A stretch of 64,000 bases of DNA from Negaprion brevirostris (lineage: Eukaryota), in assembly GCA_030324005.1 (NCBI GenBank), contig JARDVH010000084.1:95652876-95716875 (forward strand), in the 5' to 3' direction. The notes under the pieces were generated by a model. That model was not told the DNA's origin. It did no database searches and saw only the letters and a list, made by a program, of their open reading frames with translations. This document shows positions 10,358-37,282 of this stretch, in pieces. Position 1 is the first letter of the stretch, and each line of letters opens with the position of its first letter. The position numbers and the translations under genes are program-made.

Positions 10358-10528
10358 TCAGTGGCCACTGGCGTTACGGAATTCGCCATTCTCCGTGATC
10401 TGTAGGCGCGGCGGAGGGTGCGACGACATCATGCCATTCAGCTGGGTCTCGCTGCACCGGTCTTTCATGTGAGTCAGGGTGCTCATCAGCCGGGAGTTGG
10501 TTGCCCCCATCGTTGAGAGCTGCCTCTC
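10358..10528 (-). CDS. SYNGAP1: SYNGAP1 terminal coding exon, alpha2-type frame
   Basis: ttttgtttag|GAGAGGCAG; ERQLSTMGATNSRLMSTLTHMKDRCSETQLNGMMSSHPPPRLQITENGEFRNASGH*; ERQL and PPPRLQITENGEFRN match SynGAP alpha2. Confidence 0.95.
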   Translation of the reverse strand, partial: ERQLSTMGATNSRLMSTLTHMKDRCSETQLNGMMSSHPPPRLQITENGEFRNASGH

Positions 10529-12829
10529 CTAAACAAAACAAAAAATATATAAAAAGGGAAGAAATCCGTGTTAAAGCCACAGCATCCGTCGCCAAGGAGG
10601 GCGAACTTCTCTGTACCCTGGAGCAGCCAAGCCAAGTCCTCGAAGCGATATGGCGAGAGGAAGCCAATTTATAATGGGGGAGGGGGCGGAGTTGTGGGGC
10701 CTTAAGAAATTGGAATCTACCAATCTCAATAAGGATATCTGCACCAGCCAATTGCATAATTCAATGAAAGACAACTTTACTTTCTTTAAATCAAAAGCAA
10801 TCTGATGCTTTGAGCAGGGCCCCTCTAATTTTGCTGGAAACCAACTCGCAAAACTGTTCAATGTCAGGGTGGAAAGAATCCAGGTCACCCTTAGCAAGAC
10901 TCAGGATTTCACACATGGGTTGCATATCTGAGCCAGAATGCTGGAACAATGTTTTGAGACCTAGGAGCTGCCCAAGCTCAGCTGGTGGGGGAGACAATCA
11001 GTAGCAGGTAGAGAAGGTGAGGAAAATATGAATCTAATTTGTGCCATGTGGGGATGTGGGATGAGTTGGTAGGCTTCTATCACAAAGATAATGACAGTCA
11101 ATTCTCATTAAACAAAAAAAGGGTGGTAATTTCTTTCAAATGTAAAAGTGGTTAAAAAATAAGATACAGGTGACCTGATTGGATAGTTAGATTTCAAGTG
11201 CCTCCAATCAGAATGAAGAAGTACGCTCTCCACAGAATTGTGCTTGGATGATTCCAGGATATGAGGAACATTTCAAAGCATCGAGAATCAAATCTACCAA
11301 CAATCTACAACATCTCCGCTTTCACATCCCAGCGCAGTGTGCTCCTTTGTCGTGGCCTAGGCTTCGGGACCTTTGTTCTTAATCAATGCCCTAAATTGAC
11401 ACGGTGACAGGCAGGCCCAATTCAGTGAGCATCTAATCTTTCTCCATGCTTGCTGCTTTGAAGCCTTACACCCCCCTTCCTCCTCACATATTACATTGAT
11501 GCCATGTTAGCCACCTTGCCTAATGCGGGAGATAACTTGAAACGAATGTGTGTACAAACAGTCCCCACCGTCTACCCTCCCCCCAAATTATCGTGTAACT
11601 GGACGCATCCATAGGCATTTTATACTCCACCCTGACCAACTGATGTAGCTGACGGGTTAAAATTGATCAAGAGCCCATTGTCTCCCTTCCACCCAATAAA
11701 TGCTTTATAAACAACCTAGCCCCCATCTGCACTAACTATTAGGAGATCTACATATAGTTGAGACAACTATATGGGTTTTCCTGCAGTCTGTTTGCCTTCG
11801 GCATGAACTGCTTTCTGTTGCCTTTTTGGGTTTTGCTTCCTTCTATGTTTTGGATGGGAAAGCGGACCTACTTCAGCACCTTATATTTTGGATGGGAAAG
11901 TGGATCTACTTCAGCACCTGATATTGCAACTGACTGGCAGAGGGCAACATGTTCTGGGTTGCCATGCAGTGGTATGCATTCCTTATTGTTCTTGAAGACT
12001 ATTTGGGAAGCAGAAAGAGTCTTCAATAGCTTCTTTATGTTATCAAACTTGATTGGTGTGCTTCTGAATCTAGAGATTCTTCCACTGTATGGCAGGGAAT
12101 AGTGGTGCAATCAATGGAGAGAAATATTGGGGAGGGGGATGTGATACTGATATTTCATCTGTTCCTGTGTGCTTCCTGCCCACCGCGTCAAGTTGAAATT
12201 TATTCTCAAAGTGCCCACAAGCGCCTGTGGGATACTCCTAGATTTGGCATCTCTGGAGGCACCGTAGCTTGGACCACAAACACGTGAAGAGACACAGCAC
12301 AGAGAATGAATGGCTTCAACTTGTGACAGAATGAAAGTCATGCAAACATCACAATGGCGGGGAGAATGACACATATTGCAGGTCAAAAAAAGAAACAAAT
12401 GACAATTCTTTTTAGTTTCAGTCTCTTGTTATGTTGTATTTCCCACCTCTTAGAATCTCTGTATTGGTTTAGCTCTTCGAATGGATGTGGCTGAAGTGAA
12501 GTGAGCTGCAGATCGACATGGGTTGCCACACCAAACTTCAGTCACATGATTTCCACTTTGTGGCCAGTTTCATGGCGTCCCCTCGGAACTGAGTGGGACT
12601 ATTCAAATAGGTAATTCTCGCCTCACATCCTGGGCCAAGTCACTGAGAAAGTTCAAGGTTCAAATTCTCACTTTAAAGCTTTAATGTATTCTCATTGTTT
12701 TAACAGGGTATGTGGATTGCCCCATAAAATTAAGCATGAGGCACCCATGTGAATCTAAAGATGACACTGGGTGTCATGCTATGTGCTTATAATTCAGTCC
12801 CATATCCTGCTTTGGGGGACCTGACGAAC

Positions 12830-13180
12830 AGGTTTGGCAGGGTAGATACTGAGAGAGTGTAGCCACTGGCTGGGGAATTCAGAATACTGGAAGGCACACA
12901 GAGAGTGGGCACAGTCTTAAGATAAAGGGCTGATTATTTAATGTGAGAATGAGGAGAAATTTCTTCTCGTCAGGAGGTTGTGAATCTTTGGATGGCTGTG
13001 TATGCTCCATTATTGAGTACATTTAAAGCTAAAATAAACAGATCTTTGTTAGTCAGGGAATTAAACATTAGGAGAGTGGGTGGGAAAGTGGACTTAAGGC
13101 AGAAGATTAGCCATGATTGTACTGAATGGCAGAGCAGGCTTGAGGAGCCATACTCCTGCTCCTGTTTCTTATTCTGTGCT
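12830..13180 (+). mobile_element. CR1 3' fragment
   Basis: gatgaggagaaatttcttctc-like motif, gttgtgaatctttgga, gatcagccatgat-like motif, tactcctgctcct. Confidence 0.75.
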
Positions 13181-13254
13181 TTTGTTAGGCTTTGTTTGTC
13201 TAAGATTACCTTACACTCTTAATATTCTATAACATTTGTGTTTTTTTATTTGTT

Positions 13255-13590
13255 TGTTGGATGTGGATAGCAATTATTGCCCATCCCAAAGTTTCCTTGA
13301 ACTGAGTGGTTTGCTAGGCCTCTTCGGAGGGCATTTAAGAGTCAACCACATTGATATGGGTCTGAAGTCACATATAGACCAGATCAAATCGGGACAGCAA
13401 ATATTCTTTCTGAAGGGGCATTAGTGAAGGGGTGAGTTTTAAACAACAATCAATAATGGTTTCATGGTCATCATTGGACTTTCAATTCAAATTTCATCAT
13501 CTGACTTGGGATTTGAAACCATGTCTGCACAGCATTACCCTGGGTCTTGGGATTTGTAGTCCAGTGACAATACCATTGCCAATACCTCCA
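13255..13590 (-). mobile_element. tRNA-headed SINE-like repeat
   Basis: Minus-strand A-box/B-box-like ggtattgtcactgg...ggtttcaaatccc; related fragments near 23.15 and 36.55 kb. Confidence 0.55.
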
Positions 13591-16500
13591 CTGCTTTCTA
13601 CCTTTGTGCATGTCAATGTGTTTATCCCAGTATATATCTGTATGTGTATTGACATGTGTATACATACAAATCAGTGTGTATATCTATATCTGTATAGGAG
13701 TATAGATGTATAACTGTAACTATGTACCTAAGTGTAACTATGTCTGTACAGGGGTTAAAACTAATAGCAGCAAAACACTCAAACTTTGTCCCATAACCCC
13801 CTGTCAGTGATCACTTTGTGAATGCCAGATCCTGTGTTGTGTTTTGCTGCTATGGTGACAGATAAGTCTGCTGCTGAGAAGCATTGGGAGGAGTAGGAAC
13901 TGCACAATGGACTACAGCCCATATTATTGCAGCAAAGTAAATTTGTAAGTACCAATGAGTCAAAACCAGCACAGGAATACTTAAGATGGAAGAATGGAGG
14001 CAAGAGCAAGTCTTTAAATATATTTTGTAAATCACATCTAGTGATAGATGAGGGTGGAAGAATCTCTCTGCTCCTTGAAACAACATCCACCACATTATAC
14101 ATTCACTTACAATTACACCTCATATCAACAGAGCAGGGTCCTTGGCTGAGGGGTGCCTCAGAATTTAATGCAATGGATTCAACCGCAATAGGTGAAAGGG
14201 GGGGAGACAACATTTGGTGAAAATGTGCAATGAAACTTCGGTAACAGAAACCTTTCAAGATGTAGTTGAACAAGCAATGATAGACTGATCTGCTGCCGAG
14301 CCAAAATGAGGGTAAAATCCAGGCTTTGCCCTTTGACCTTCTCCGAGTTGCCCTCAGACTAGCTCAAAAGCAACTGTATTCCATTGTTGCTCAGTGTTTA
14401 GATGATGTCAATGAGTGTTTGAATGGACACTGAGAAGATGGTGATGCGCTCTACCATCTCACATACAGTAAAGATACAGTAAAATTTGATACTGCAAATA
14501 ACCAGCGGCAATGGAATGGAAATAAAAATGTTTGCATATATGATCGAAAGTGGAAGTGGGTCACAACCAAGGCACAACACAGCTTTCCAGTACTTGCTCA
14601 TGATGGTCAACATGTTAGCTTGATGGGCCAACACTCCCATGGGCGTTCATCAGTTCTCAGCCAGACTGGTCACAAAACAATGACTTTCAGGTCTGCCCAA
14701 CCAGGTTCAGAAGTTAACCTGCCTGTGAAAGTTATCTGAAGTTGTCCATTTGCTTGGAATTGAGCTGTAGGCTCAGCTACCACCTCTAATAGCTGCAACT
14801 TCTCCACCCCCAGCACCCTCTCCACTAATAAATATGCTCAATAAGCATGGATGACCAACAAAGACCAATAAGATATAGCCAGACACTATGCCCCATGCCA
14901 ACCCTACTGAATTAGAAGGAATGGGAAAATGGATCCCTAATTCCAGTTCCTATGCCAATTCTGATTGGCACTGGGCTGCACCAGAATTATCAACCATTCC
15001 CAAATGTGAACGATGGTTTCTGAACCAAAAGGATTTGGCATCACAGACTCTCCTCAAGTCTCTCCCAATACCACACCCTCCATTTTAAGATGGAATGTTG
15101 CAAGGAAGAGTGGGTTGGAGTAGTTCACAGCCTAAATGGAATTGCACTGGTGAAAATGGTGCAGTGGAACTTTCAGAAGAAGCCAACAGATCTGACATTG
15201 TCCTCCTCACCTGTTTCTGTCGGTCAGAAATTCCAACCAAAATTCTTCAGGCAGAGAGAGAGAGAGAGATATTTAGGGAGAATCAGAGGGTGTGACAACA
15301 CTCTAGTAAATGTTGCAGAAATAAAAGCAGGTATAGGCTATTCAGTCCCTCAAGTCTTGCTTCTCTATGCAATAAGATCATAGCTGATCTTATATTGGCC
15401 TCACTCCACTTTACTGTCTGTCCCCCATAACTCTTAACTCCCTTGTGGGATGGCTGAGAACAGGTGAAAACATACAAGGGGAGGCTGATGTTTCTCTCAC
15501 CTTGGATGGTGCCCAATGGAAACACTAAGCCAGCAAGACAGAATAGCAAATTGCAAATCTGTCACAGGTCATACAAGTAAGACTTCTTAAGAGAGCACAA
15601 CACAGTACAAACCATCAAAATTCATTTTTGTAGGCAAAAGAAAATTCAAGCCAGGCAACTACAACCATTTGGCAACAGACTAAAAGCTGACAAACATGCG
15701 ATACAGACAGAAATCCAGCTTCAACACAACATCTTGGACACACTTTTTTGTGAAACTTTCAATCTAACAGGAGGCAAAGAAGTTAACACTTTGCTGGATT
15801 CCAGTTTCTTTTGAGGAAAAGCCATCTGCCCACTGTACCTCCACCCTCCCAACTCAAACTCCTCCACGAGACCTCTTGCCTCTCCAAAATCTCCATTAGT
15901 TGAGAGCAAAGGCAGGCAGGGAGGTGGGCACACCTGTGACTCCATCGGCTGATGGGGAGGGAAGATCTGCTTGAGAGGTTAAGGTGGGTGAATTATGATA
16001 TATATCTCCAACCCTTCCCACCACCCCCACCAACCAATCTGGTCTGGTCTTGCTAGGTTACACTTAATAGCCCGTGGGACCTGCCACTGAGGTGGTCACC
16101 ATACACTTGGTCCAGACCGGATTACAAGGTCTCTTTTCTGGAACTATGCTTCAAGCTCCTTCTCTTTTTAAAGGACTGGTACCAAAAGAAAAATTTCCAA
16201 ATTGAACTTGGTCCAACTGGGGGGAGGGGAGGGGATATATTTCTGAATTCACCTGACTCAGGCAACCCACTTCATTTCAGTATTTTGTGAAATGTTTATC
16301 TCTGCCAAGGAACAGTCACAGATTAAAAAACAAAATCATAGGGTGGAATTTTAGGGCCTCTGCCATTAGCAGTATTTTCTGATCATGCCAAAGTCGATGA
16401 ACTTTTGAAAGGTTCACAACATTTTCTGTGACCTGTTCCCACCACCAGGGGGCTGTAGAATTCTACCCATGGAATCNNNNNNNNNNNNNNNNNNNNNNNN

Positions 16501-18388
16501 NNNNNNNNNNNNNNNNNNNNNNNNNNNNNNNNNNNNNNNNNNNNNNNNNNNNNNNNNNNNNNNNNNNNNNNNNNNNCCCATGGAATCTGCAAAAGTGGAA
16601 ACTTTAGGGAAAGATTTTGTATTCAATGTTTCCTATTTAGAGATTTGAATATTGAGGAGGCCTATTCTCAGTTGAGGCCTAGCTTTCTGAATGGAAAATT
16701 GTCTTCCTTGTTCACTATGTGAAACAATACAATGTGATGGGCTTAATTAGGAAGCTGCACTGTGCTGGGTGACAGTAACCAAAAGGTGCGGTCCTCTGGG
16801 ATCCCTGGAAGAAAGGCCACTTGGTTGCAATGTCAACCTCTTTTGGTGACCCAGAGAAGGTCTTAGTGTGACTCCATATCAGCCTGGACTCAAGAGAGCT
16901 AGCATGTGCTGCGGTGACTCAAGCGGCATGCACTGGCAAACCCTAAGACCAGGACTAACCTTTGGAGGTAATGAACCTTTGTTGCACAGTAAAATGAAAA
17001 TTAATAACATGACGTGGGACGTGTGTGTGTGCTAACACAGTTGACACGTCAAGTGGCAAGGCATAGGTCATGTGGGGACATATTGGTTGAAACGACAAAT
17101 GGACATGCACACAGACACTCATACACGCACAGCGACAGACACAAAAAAAAAGCCACACCACCTCACATCGACTTTGCAGACACGTGTGAAAAGATCTTCA
17201 GTGCAGTCCTTGTCTTAGTTCAAGACTCTCTGATGGAGTATCAGTCCAAGGGGCATCAGGGACCTTGCAGTAGTGCCTGTACCAAGTAAGATGGTGACCT
17301 CAGTTCTTAAGAGCTCTTCAGGTAAAGGCCCTCCACATTCCCCCTCCTCCAACCCCCAACAACCTGGCCCCTTACAGGCCTCTCCAAAGACACTTCTTCC
17401 AGTCCATCAAGGCCTTTGAATCAAGATGTTTCCACCCATTGTACTTTTAATTTCAAAAACAATGTTTATTTGTTGGTGGAAAGGGGAGTGGGGCAAGGGT
17501 GAAAAGGCAAAACTGCAAGAGGTCTATGAGTACATTCGCTCGTGAAGATGTTGTGTAGATTTGATTTCTGACAGCTCTGAAATAGCTGGCCTGCTGGAGA
17601 TGTGCAACAAAGTCCAATATCTGCCCATTTCTTCACCCTCCCTTACTGCCACCATCCCCCAAAACCACTGAATACAAATTATTGCAACCAATTTGAGAAG
17701 GCCTCCAATCCATTTCACATTCAGTCCTCTTTATTCCCCCATTGATGGGGGAAACAACAAACCGTGCAAAGAACCTCCATCGACTTGCACTGCAGCTCAA
17801 CCTTAGGTGACCCATCGCTTAGATATTGGAACTTTTCACACATCTCTGCAGCCTTCAGATCTTCTGAAAGCCAGGGATACTGCAGCTTAAAAGATTTCTC
17901 CCTTTTCTTTGTCTCGTACCTTCTGGTTCGCTGCCCTCAAATGTCGGAGGAGGTACAGGCGGCGCAAGACACCGTTCCAGCCAGGGTTTTCTAGTCGCCT
18001 CTGAGTCGGTCAACAAGGCCCTCACGGCGCGACCATCTCCCCTGCCCCCTTCTGCATGTGAACGGAGCATTCTTTCCCCACACCCAGCTAACAATGTGCC
18101 ACACAATCAAAACCACCAGCCCGAGGAGTGACCCCACTTACCGGGTCCTGTGGCCAAACTTGAATGTAGATCCAGAATTAATTTTTATATAAATATATAT
18201 ATATATATACAATATATATATACTTTTTCAAAACAAAGAATNNNNNNNNNNNNCTCCCTCCCAAAAAAACCTGTCCAGCCAATTAGAGAACTCATTTTCC
18301 TGCCCAGGTTGCCTGCCAGAAGGACATCGCGGTCTAAACGCCGCCCTCAGTAGGTCCCGCGCCAACGGAAACCCGAGGCAGATCAGCG

Positions 18389-18596
18389 TCAGACCAGCTG
18401 CTGCCCCCCTCCCCCTTCCAAGCTGTACTCGAAGCGGCGAGCCTGGCGACGAACGAGGCGGGGGTCTCCGCGGAACTTGGCCTCGATCCGGCTCGAAGCA
18501 TAGTCCTTGGCGCGGTGAGGGCGAGGTGGGTGGGCAGCGGGTGGGGCTGGAAAACCATTTTGCTTTTTTTTGAAGGAATGCTCCATTGACTTCCAG
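18389..18596 (-). CDS. Candidate alternative exon / ORF in last SYNGAP1 intron (acceptor hidden in gap 18597-18673)
   Basis: Preceded by TACTAAT branch point and an AG-free pyrimidine tract of more than 80 nt; GC-rich open frame WKSMEHSFKKKQNGFPAPPAAHPPRP...GGGGQQLV*. Confidence 0.4.
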
Positions 18597-19612
18597 NNNN
18601 NNNNNNNNNNNNNNNNNNNNNNNNNNNNNNNNNNNNNNNNNNNNNNNNNNNNNNNNNNNNNNNNNNNNNNNNNAAAGAAGGCGTAAGAGAGTAAGAAAGG
18701 GGAAAAGAGGAAAGGCAGGAAGAGAAATAAAGAAATTTACATATGTATTTGCAATATTAGTACAATTTGTTGGCACAATTTCCATACCACAAAGGTATAC
18801 CTCACAAAGCACGAACACATACAGACACATGTATATATTGAATACATATGTAGATTATATAAATATATATCACAATCAATAAAGCAATAATGTTAGTTAT
18901 TAGATGCTGCATTTCCAAAATGGTTGCTCAGCAAAGTTTTCGACAGCCTGTACAGTACAGATTACAATAGCCGCCTCCCCTCACACCAGGGAACAGTGAT
19001 GACCATGACACTTGGCGAAGGATGGGGTTATCGAAACCACTTGAACCTGACCGGCTGAGGATAGGGTGCAGTGCCCATCTGATTGCCAAGCCCACCGTGC
19101 ACCTCAACAAAGACAGGATCATCTGGACAGGACATGAAAGCCGGCCGCGCACCCTATCCGGCCACCCTCCCCGTTTTGGCTGCCGGCCGCTGCGAAGTGA
19201 CCACCCCGGTGGGGCAGTGGTCAGGAAAGGCAGCCCGTAATTGCATCCTCAGCCATCGCCACCGCCACTTGTAGGTAATCCTACCGGGAGATCGGAGGCC
19301 ACGGTAGGTCACGTCTGCCCGTCTTGCGCCATTGTCGCACACCTTGGCCGTGGTAGCTCGTCTGCAGCCGCCCCATAACCGTCACCCAACTCCGCCTGTC
19401 TTGACCCCTTTTCCTGACCCGCCAAGAGAGACATTCTAGAAGGTTCTTCCTCCATCTGCGTAGCGCTGACTCCCCCAACCGCCCATCCTTTTTCTTCCCC
19501 CAGTCATTTTATCATTTCCTCCAAGAAAGATGCGATGAATTCATCCACTTGACATTGAAGGTAAGGGTGGGTAGGAGAGGGTAGGCGCCCTTACCCTGGA
19601 GAGCAGGTGGAC

Positions 19613-30281: not shown

Positions 30282-31823
30282 NNNNNNNNNNNNNNNNNNN
30301 NNNNNNNNNNNNNNNNNNNNNNNNNNNNNNNNNNNNNNNNNNNNNNNNNNNNNNNNNNNNNNNNNNNNNNNNNNNNNNNNNCTTTCTAAACATCTGAAGG
30401 CTTGGCTCTTCACAGATTGAGCCTGTGATATTTTCGGGTGGAGCAAGTTCGGGATGGAATTTCCCTCTTTCCTCACCTTCTCCTATCCACACTACTCTCC
30501 TCCCCACCCTCTTCCTATCCAGACTTGTACATCTCCCCATCCCTGCCTATTTTCCTATTCCAATTTACTCACTATTATCAAATTTGTGTCTGTTCTCAGT
30601 AGGTGCTCTTGCCCTAACCTTGTCTTTTATTGCCCTTCTGGAGCTATTTATCAGCATGTGAAGTAATCTTAATCCTACTTTCAAATAGTTTAAACTGCTC
30701 AATATATTCAAGTAGTTGGGCGCCGTTGCTTGTGATTTGGCCGTACTCTGTTCAGTTGGTCATTTATAATACCAAGTGGAAAGGGCTATCACCCAGTGCT
30801 GAGTCCGTGGACTTGTTTGAATTCTCTTCTCCTTTGTACATGCAAGTTACTTCTCTTTGTTCCTGCACAACTAGACTGCCATTGGATAATCTGCTATTGA
30901 CAACTATCAGACATTGCCAGAGCACTGGAATCCATTTGGGGTACATTGCATTTGAAATCAGATCTTAGCAGAGAGAAATGAGCATATGGTGGCGGGTCTG
31001 GTTTGGTACCTAGTGGCAACTGTACCAACGTTTGGCCTACTCCAAAAAGGTCATTAGTGTAAACAGTGCGACAAACCTGAGTGTATGTTGGCAAAATCGC
31101 TGCACACCTTGTAGTAGTGAGCAGCCTCATGACCACTTAAAGAGTACATGCCCGCCCTTCATTCCCTTGTGCCAGCTAATACCCCACCCAACCAATTCGC
31201 TTCAGAGGTGGGCAATCGCATAGAGGAATTAAACAAAAGAAAAACATGCATGTGAGGTTACCATTGGCCTCCTGGTTTTCCCACTTGTACATAACCAGGG
31301 CAGAACCCTGCCTAATTACTGTCAACTATTTCCCAGGTCAAACCTCATCTTCACAATCTCACAAGCTGCCTTTCCAAAACTGAGGACATTTAAGTGGGGG
31401 CCATCCCACTTCTGTCCTGGTACCTCCCCACTGCACAAAAACATGCATGCCACTGAAAGTAGTTAAAATTTTTGCAATGGTGCCAGCCAATTTTCCCTGA
31501 ACATCGCCAGCGCAGTTGCCCCCAGCCCATTTTAAGGGGTGGGTCGAATGCTGATTCTGAAAAAAAAACATGGTATCTTAAGGAGGGTTGGATAGTAGTA
31601 GGAATGTCCCTGCTGAGTATTTATTAGAAACTGATAGCTGTCCAATTATGACACGCATCATGGCAGGAGCCCCTTTGCTTATAGTTGGGGAGGCGGGGAG
31701 AAAATCTGCAGCAGTTTGTTCAGATGAGGTTTGACCGGAGCCGTCCTATCCCGACAAGACTGGTTTGCAGACGCTGCTCCCTCAGTGTCATTTGTTGATC
31801 TTTGAGGTGATGATTTTCTGTAC

Positions 31824-31911
31824 CTGAACGTCGATTATCCGCTGCTTGGCATCAATGGCCTCCTGCATGTTGGCGTGGTCTTTCCTCAACTCGTCTTCCA
31901 CCACCATTAAC
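31824..31911 (-). CDS. SYNGAP1: SYNGAP1 exon 18 equivalent
   Basis: gcccacag|...|gtacag, 88 bp; (R)LMVVEDELRKDHANMQEAIDAKQRIIDVQ; not present in the ORF track. Confidence 0.93.
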
Positions 31912-37070: not shown

Positions 37071-37282
37071 CTGTTGATAATGCCTTTGATCTGGTTGTCC
37101 TTCTCCTCCTGCTGCCGGCGCAGACGGGTCTCACTTTCATCCAGGCGTGTCTGGTATTCTCGAAGGATCTTCCCTGTTTGTTCCTCCTGTGACATCAGCC
37201 GCCGCTNNNNNNNNNNGCGGTTAGACATCTGCAGCCGTTCCTTCAGGGAAAGAATCTCCTCCTCATACTGGGTCTGTTGCCC
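37071..37282 (-). CDS. SYNGAP1: SYNGAP1 exon 17 equivalent, coiled coil (contains 10-N gap; 5' boundary ambiguous)
   Basis: [17 protein letters not shown][gap][44 protein letters not shown](R); donor gtaaac. Confidence 0.93.

What the first reader, a model, noticed from the sequence alone, without database searches (positions are those of the whole stretch)
18389..18762. Candidate unannotated alternative C-terminal exon of SynGAP ending ...GGGGQQLV*
Seen: near-consensus branch point TACTAAT (18762-18756), then more than 80 nt of AG-free, largely CU-rich sequence running into a 77-N gap. After the gap comes a GC-rich frame (WKSMEHSFKKKQNGFPAPPAAHPPRPHRAKDYASSRIEAKFRGDPRLVRRQARRFEYSLEGGGGQQLV*) and then UTR-like AT-rich sequence. 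Known: distal branch points with long CU tracts mark PTBP-regulated exons, and the mammalian gamma exon lies in this intron. Inference: a new isoform tail. Its NG-then-Pro-rich segment loosely echoes the alpha2 tail, and the terminal Val might be a non-canonical PDZ ligand (-2 is Gln, not S/T). The frame cannot be fixed because the acceptor is in the gap.
Basis: partly seen in the sequence, partly recalled or inferred. Interest (0 to 1): 0.72.

Follow-up and report, generated by a model that had tools for sequence, protein, structure and literature searches.

The report
Shark-and-ray alternative SynGAP tail
Sharks and rays splice an extra last exon onto the synaptic gene SYNGAP1, giving a conserved 66-residue tail that automated gene models already hold; it may serve as a docking tail, because this shark lacks the PSD-95-binding end that mammals have.

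Summary
The exon is real, and its frame is now fixed. An RNA-type contig (run X10) joins the upstream coiled-coil exon (ends 31824, ..RIIDVQ) to 18589. The acceptor AG is at 18591-18590, in plain view just after the gap, not inside it. It is not unannotated: RefSeq predicted isoforms of three sharks and one ray carry the same join, length and stop (77-94% identical, 45 of 66 positions invariant, last 9 invariant). No homolog was found outside elasmobranchs, and no paper was found in five searches. It sits where the gamma exon sits but does not match its sequence. QQLV fits none of PDZ classes 1-3. A side result is more interesting: the alpha1 frame of this shark's alpha exon ends TPG*, not TRV/TPV*, and 0 of 36 chondrichthyan SynGAP models end in a class 1 ligand. 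The PSD-95 ligand is therefore likely a bony-vertebrate gain. Whether QQLV stands in for it is untested (about 15%). dN/dS and gap closure were not achieved. The scan's earlier notes hold nothing on this gene.

The parts
31824..31911 (-). last common coiled-coil exon of SYNGAP1 (..LMVVEDE..RIIDVQ), 88 nt, ends in phase 0; GT donor at 31823-31822
   Evidence: 30 loose letters of X10 record 9 match + strand 31826-31855 exactly
18592..18800 (-). AG-exclusion zone: 209 nt if the 77 N hold no AG (127 + 5 visible nt); the six other acceptors examined have 23-75 nt
18756..18762 (-). predicted distant branch point TACTAAT; branch A 18757, 167 nt from the acceptor (gap size taken as given)
   Evidence: sequence; use as branch point is inferred
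18674..18736 (-). polypyrimidine tract, 63 nt visible, 90% C/T; six TCTT words between branch point and gap
18597..18673 (.). 77-N assembly gap, intronic, not closed
18590..18591 (-). 3' splice-site AG (AAG|TCA), first visible AG after the branch point
   Evidence: X10 record 9 leaves the window at 18591 into the upstream exon; X19 record 32 also ends at 18591 with 28 further letters, not shown; RefSeq joins VQ|SMEH
18389..18589 (-). coding part of the alternative last exon: 66 codons + TGA (SMEHSF..EGGGGQQLV*)
   Evidence: single copy in G000
18392..18418 (-). invariant last 9 residues EGGGGQQLV; Val at 0, Gln at -2
   Evidence: 5 of 5 species; chance of a terminal run of 9 given 45 of 66 invariant = 0.025
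17499..18388 (-). 3' UTR, at least this far by RNA-type contigs; AATAAA at 17735 and 17470; true 3' end unknown (may run on to the alpha exon)
10358..10528 (-). competing alpha exon; alpha2 frame ERQLS..RNASGH* (56 aa)
   Evidence: X17 contig of 3206 nt lies on 10367-10522 with 0 differences
10486..10527 (-). alpha1 (+1) frame of the alpha exon: RGSSQRWGQPTPG*, same length as the mammalian alpha1 tail but without a PDZ ligand

Best explanation
This is an alternative last exon of SYNGAP1 that is spliced in frame to the coiled-coil exon, is conserved in sharks and a ray, and encodes a 66-residue tail in place of the alpha tail; the tail likely acts as a mostly unstructured docking tail with a free C-terminal valine. 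Shown: the junction 31824 to 18589, the frame, the stop, and conservation of length and end in five species. Inferred (about 70%): the exon is picked by a distant branch point and a scan to the first AG, with the long pyrimidine tract as a regulatory site, so that it competes with the alpha exon 8 kb downstream. Inferred (about 55%): the protein is made and the tail changes where SynGAP sits or what it binds, leaving PH, C2, GAP and coiled coil intact, as the mammalian tails do. Inferred (about 25%): the invariant GGGG-QQLV end is read by a C-terminus-binding domain; PSD-95 class 1 binding is unlikely because position -2 is Gln.
For: Spliced contig X10 record 9 (150 nt, depth 8): 35 letters on 18557-18591, then letters identical to the upstream exon. 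X19 record 32, another study and organism, ends at the same place. RefSeq models of Heterodontus francisci, Chiloscyllium punctatum, Scyliorhinus torazame and Hypanus sabinus have the same join, 66 aa, no indel, 94, 89, 94 and 77% identity; 6 of 15 listed members of a 116-member cluster. RNA-type contigs lie on the exon in 4 of the 5 RNA-type runs laid (X10, X17, X18, X19; X16 only on the UTR). AG-free zone 127 visible nt against 23-75 at six other acceptors, the hallmark in PMC1431707. AlphaFold: pLDDT 59, pTM 0.18, no fold, weak helices 31-54. No Pfam family.
Against: Only one contig shows the junction letters directly; the runs' RNA label is a guess by the tool, tissue unknown. RefSeq models are predictions. 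No protein-level evidence. dN/dS could not be computed, and the UTR is about as conserved as the exon in X18 (14 differences in 239 nt against 21 in 265), so part of the constraint may be on the RNA. The tail is less conserved than alpha2 (54 of 56 in three models). An AG could lie in the gap. X10 contigs tile the 8 kb down to the alpha exon, one crossing the alpha acceptor unspliced: a very long 3' UTR or unspliced RNA, either of which could mean low protein yield.
Confidence: 0.8

Rival explanations
1. Origin: the exon is the elasmobranch ortholog of the gamma exon, a long form that bony vertebrates cut down (Polypterus 17 aa, cyprinids 21 aa, amniotes 4 aa).
For: Same intron and same phase 0 as gamma. 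The first 26 residues end RPHR, as the Polypterus exon does; cyprinid exons end RMHR, RMNR or RMQR.
Against: Shuffle tests give P 0.04-0.21 for Polypterus and 0.05-0.79 for two cyprinids, while Polypterus against carp gives 0.0005 in global mode. Bony-vertebrate gamma-position exons end in R and then stop or splice into the alpha1 frame; the shark exon runs 66 codons and has no donor-like site between 18600 and 18145.
Confidence: 0.2
2. Origin: the exon is an old tandem copy of the 3' half of the alpha exon (NG..PPR core), since diverged.
For: The three best of 151 non-self C-termini are all alpha2 tails: loach 66, chimaera 56, carp 50; full shuffles 0, 3 and 10 of 10000, block shuffles 7, 2 and 80 of 10000; HMM of the tails finds the loach tail at E 8.5e-5 among 157.
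Against: The alpha2 tails of other sharks, 54 of 56 identical to this shark's, score only 24 (P about 0.46-0.48). Alpha2 HMMs without teleosts do not list the exon in the top 6 of 2116 window frames, and with them E = 1.3; hhalign probability 1-10%; DNA alignment no better than 530 of 1000 codon shuffles. The loach tail after PPPR is not conserved in other cypriniforms and was itself picked by a search with this tail.
Confidence: 0.25
3. The event is mainly regulatory: using this acceptor removes the alpha tail and adds a long 3' UTR (possibly degraded), and the peptide is conserved largely as a by-product of RNA constraint.
For: X10 contigs tile 10389-17890; UTR conservation similar to the exon in X18; G-rich end of the exon; mammalian gamma is rare, about 9% of non-beta junction reads (PMC7314543).
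Against: Length and stop are identical in 5 of 5 species from sharks to a ray while non-coding pieces in X18 show gaps; AATAAA signals lie 650-920 nt after the stop.
Confidence: 0.15
4. Chance ORF in an intron, or an assembly artefact.
For: The region holds two assembly gaps.
Against: Spliced contig, RefSeq joins in four species, DNA-type runs X1 and X6 match the flanks.
Confidence: 0.02

Closest known systems
RefSeq predicted SynGAP isoforms XP_067865623.1 / XP_067865632.1 (Heterodontus francisci), XP_072405940.1 (Chiloscyllium punctatum), XP_072331560.1 (Scyliorhinus torazame), XP_059826700.1 / XP_059826711.1 (Hypanus sabinus)
   Same: Same join, same 66-aa tail, same end: these are the orthologous isoform.
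   Different: 4 to 15 substitutions; they are automated models with no isoform name or function.
Mammalian SynGAP-gamma (exon 19, -LLIR*; PMC7314543)
   Same: Alternative exon with its own stop, in the intron between the last common exon and the alpha exon; phase 0.
   Different: 4 residues against 66; no sequence match; gamma-position exons of turtle, bichir and cyprinids can also splice on into the alpha1 frame.
SynGAP-alpha1 (class 1 PDZ ligand QTRV; PMC7314543, PMC9064290)
   Same: Ends in Val, Gln at -3.
   Different: Separate exon rather than a +1 frame; Gln, not Thr, at -2; binding untested.
Distant-branch-point exons (PMC1431707)
   Same: Long AG-free zone with branch point and pyrimidine tract towards its 5' end; first visible AG is used.
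   Different: 77 nt of the zone are unsequenced; branch point not mapped; a last exon.

Membership tests
SynGAP C-terminal splice isoform (alternative last exon) | spliced in frame to the last common coiled-coil exon | tested here: met
SynGAP C-terminal splice isoform (alternative last exon) | own stop codon and distinct tail, conserved between species | tested here: met
   5 of 5 species, 66 aa
SynGAP C-terminal splice isoform (alternative last exon) | own 3' end (polyadenylation) upstream of the alpha exon | tested here: inconclusive
   AATAAA at 17735 and 17470, but X10 contigs run on to the alpha exon
SynGAP C-terminal splice isoform (alternative last exon) | protein detected in brain | not testable with these tools
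   no proteomics at hand
SynGAP gamma exon | lies between last common exon and alpha exon, phase 0 | tested here: met
SynGAP gamma exon | short frame ending in Arg then stop (LLIR, LIIR, LFTR, LSVR; MHR in carp) | tested here: not met
   66 codons, starts SMEH
SynGAP gamma exon | sequence homology to ray-finned-fish gamma-position exon | tested here: inconclusive
   P 0.04-0.79 by test and species
Class 1 PDZ ligand (alpha1 type), X[T/S]X-hydrophobic-COOH | hydrophobic last residue | tested here: met
   Val in 5 of 5
Class 1 PDZ ligand (alpha1 type), X[T/S]X-hydrophobic-COOH | Ser/Thr at -2 (class 2: hydrophobic; class 3: Asp/Glu) | tested here: not met
   Gln in 5 of 5; class definitions from PMC2553845
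Class 1 PDZ ligand (alpha1 type), X[T/S]X-hydrophobic-COOH | binds a PDZ domain | not tested
   no complex job sent; no shark PDZ domain in hand
Distant-branch-point exon | AG-free zone of 100 nt or more before the acceptor | tested here: met
   127 visible nt; 77 N unknown
Distant-branch-point exon | first AG after the branch point is the acceptor | tested here: inconclusive
   true for visible sequence; gap unread
Distant-branch-point exon | lariat maps to the distant branch point; PTBP control | not testable with these tools
   needs lariat reads or a minigene
Tandem duplicate of the alpha exon | detectable homology to alpha exon | tested here: inconclusive

The most novel reading that the evidence does not exclude
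The PSD-95-binding end of SynGAP-alpha1 (T-x-V) was overprinted on silent positions of the alpha2 frame only in bony vertebrates; sharks and rays lack it and instead use this separate exon, whose invariant GGGG-QQLV end is an atypical ligand for a synaptic scaffold. Two lineages would then have found two ways to anchor SynGAP. The first half (no class 1 ligand in elasmobranchs, gain in bony vertebrates) I put at about 0.7; the whole at the probability given.
Probability: 0.15. Interest if true: 0.68.

Novelty: new member of a known kind. Interest (0 to 1): 0.4.

Why it matters
SynGAP's tail decides its synaptic behaviour, and the alpha1 PDZ ligand is needed for normal LTP and cognition in mice (PMC9064290, passages). 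A lineage that lacks this ligand but keeps a different, conserved tail is a natural test of whether SynGAP needs PDZ anchoring, and dates the origin of the alpha1 ligand. As an exon it is ordinary: one more alternative last exon, already in automated annotation.

Tried and rejected
Protein search with the tail alone, longer proteins: 0 of 119 candidates; this missed true orthologs because they are cluster members, not representatives, so blanks here are weak. Search of 1.84 billion representatives: 2 hits, both repeat proteins unrelated by Pfam and by inspection; rejected. Search with coiled-coil end plus tail: 52 of 159 candidates passed; none but the loach alpha2 tail covered the tail. No RNA holder is listed as RNA on record: no evidence either way. 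Gap closure: X1 and X6 have no cover at 18593-18686. X10 has no cover upstream of the acceptor (18593-19400): not used as evidence. Contig depths were not used to rank isoforms. In one search a repeat near 12940-13580 swamped the tables (244 differences, 701 loose ends, 2203 pieces not shown), so exon substitutions for dN/dS and the alpha junction letters were lost. Other frames of the exon are open too but the junction and RefSeq fix frame 0. A PxxPxR SH3-like word (residues 21-26) is broken in 2 of 5 species: rejected as a conserved motif (motif recalled). No complex prediction was sent: no PDZ partner in hand and low power for a terminal-Val peptide. Earlier scan notes: nothing by sequence or place; one unrelated Daple note. 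Zebrafish paper supplements: 0 hits for four terms.

Full report
Setting. The window holds the 3' part of SYNGAP1 on the minus strand: the large exon 43139-42285 is 96-99% identical to shark and ray SynGAP models and 89% to chimaera. The last common coiled-coil exon is 31911-31824 (..RIIDVQ, phase 0, GT at 31823). The alpha exon starts at 10528. The finding lies in the 21-kb intron between them and is single-copy in G000.

Observation. The visible AG-free run is 127 nt, 4th longest of 4050 intervals on this strand; TACTAAY occurs 5 times on the strand. The six other acceptors examined have AG-free zones of 23-75 nt.

The junction. I laid 7 of 24 listed runs; all are contigs and the RNA label is the tool's guess. 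In X10, record 9 lies on 18557-18591 and goes on for 115 letters; the 30 shown match the upstream exon at 31826-31855 exactly. The two shared letters are the AG, so the splice is 31824 to 18589 and the acceptor is AAG|TCA, five bases after the gap. The product reads ..RIIDVQ-SMEHSF..EGGGGQQLV*, 66 new residues. X19 record 32 also ends at 18591 with 28 further letters that were not printed: consistent, not proof. X17 and X18 have contigs on the exon; X16 only on the UTR.

Already annotated elsewhere. Of 15 listed members of the 116-member elasmobranch SynGAP cluster, 6 end in this tail, from Heterodontus francisci, Chiloscyllium punctatum, Scyliorhinus torazame and the ray Hypanus sabinus. With the window, 5 species give 66 residues, no indel, 45 invariant positions and identities of 94, 89, 94 and 77%. 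The last 9 residues are invariant (P 0.025). None of 5 Callorhinchus models has it, and no bony-vertebrate protein fetched ends this way; the searches for distant homologs were blank but weak. AlphaFold gives no confident fold, Pfam nothing.

How it likely works. Splicing: branch point and tract sit 167 nt before the first visible AG, which is the one used. That is the layout of distant-branch-point exons, where step 2 scans to the first AG and regulators bind in between (PMC1431707, outline and Background read). PTBP control is plausible from six TCTT words (motif recalled) but untested. The 3' end is open: AATAAA at 17735 and 17470, yet X10 contigs tile 10389-17890 and one crosses the alpha acceptor unspliced, so the UTR may be about 8 kb or the contigs may be unspliced RNA. 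Protein: the isoform keeps the whole core and coiled coil and swaps the tail, as the mammalian isoforms do (PMC7314543, passages). The tail is basic (14 K/R, 6 D/E) and ends in a glycine linker and QQLV. Gln at -2 fits none of PDZ classes 1, 2 or 3 (PMC2553845, passages), so it is not filed as a PDZ ligand; an atypical C-terminal reader stays possible.

Origin. Not gamma by sequence: gamma-position exons are 4 residues in amniotes and 17-21 in ray-finned fish, end in Arg, and stop or splice into the alpha1 frame; tests against the shark exon give P 0.04-0.79. Origin is unresolved.

Side result. The +1 (alpha1) frame of this shark's alpha exon is 13 codons, like the mammalian one, but reads RGSSQRWGQPTPG*. 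X17 is identical over these codons. A C. plagiosum model ends KGSSRRWGPPIPD, which I read as the same frame (inferred from 8 of 13 identities). 0 of 36 chondrichthyan SynGAP models fetched up to end in [ST]-x-[VIL], against 9 bony-vertebrate proteins in that call (QQTRV 7, LQTPV 2) and cyprinid QTPV tails. G000 has one SYNGAP1 alpha exon and two paralogous exons whose +1 frames are also 13 codons and end MPD* and TLG* (the names DAB2IP and RASAL2 for them are recalled). By parsimony the short frame is old and the PDZ ligand a bony-vertebrate gain; chimaera and lamprey were not checked and only part of the cluster was seen. A preprint lists SYNGAP1, RASAL2 and DAB2IP among dual-coding regions kept across jawed vertebrates (10.64898/2026.05.28.727796, passages and section 21); its supplements are closed and may bear on this. 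In mice the alpha1 ligand is needed for normal LTP (PMC9064290, passages). In zebrafish only an alpha1-like tail could be matched (PMC11266194, passages and supplement search; its isoform figure is not held). 10.1101/2024.10.10.617460 (passages) concerns mouse gamma only.

Print status. Five searches found no paper on a shark or ray SynGAP tail; the library lacks most subscription journals.

Verdict. A real, conserved, elasmobranch alternative last exon of SYNGAP1; a new member of a known kind, already in RefSeq models. Interest 0.4, most of it from the missing alpha1 ligand and the open question of what QQLV binds.

Noticed in passing
window 10527-10486 (-): The alpha1 frame ends TPG*: the Arg codon of the alpha2 frame is CGG here, so the last residue is Gly, not Val. 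No class 1 PDZ ligand in 36 chondrichthyan models.
   Followed up: partly
L006; G000:C84:95601349-95601429 (-): A further alternative last exon (27 aa, PSETGH..TYGAFR*, after a TAG acceptor) about 51 kb beyond the window start; matches RefSeq tails of Stegostoma and Mobula.
   Followed up: partly
G000:C84:95437349-95448740 (-): A33-like TRIM/PRY-SPRY gene about 205 kb downstream on the same strand. RefSeq models of Chiloscyllium punctatum, Stegostoma and Mobula fuse SynGAP (after RIIDVQ) in frame to it: conserved read-through or annotation artefact.
   Followed up: partly
P0012, P0121: Ray models (Hypanus, Hemitrygon) carry yet another tail (KRKEPL..HPDYL) with no match in the window.
   Followed up: no
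P0177, P0214, P0260, P0273: In turtle, bichir and cyprinids the gamma-position exon either stops after its Arg or splices on into the alpha1 frame, so it can act as a frame-switch cassette that yields the PDZ ligand.
   Followed up: no
L008, L009: Two paralogous last exons in G000 keep a 13-codon +1 frame with the stop at the same place.
   Followed up: partly
window 12940-13580: A repeat that is very abundant in all four RNA-type runs.
   Followed up: no
window 37207-37216: A 10-N gap inside a coding coiled-coil exon; against the homologs it stands for more than 10 bases and does not show a real frameshift (inferred).
   Followed up: no
G000:C84:85-101 Mb: Dozens of PRY-SPRY genes surround SYNGAP1 on this contig, as in an MHC-linked region (recalled).
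   Followed up: no
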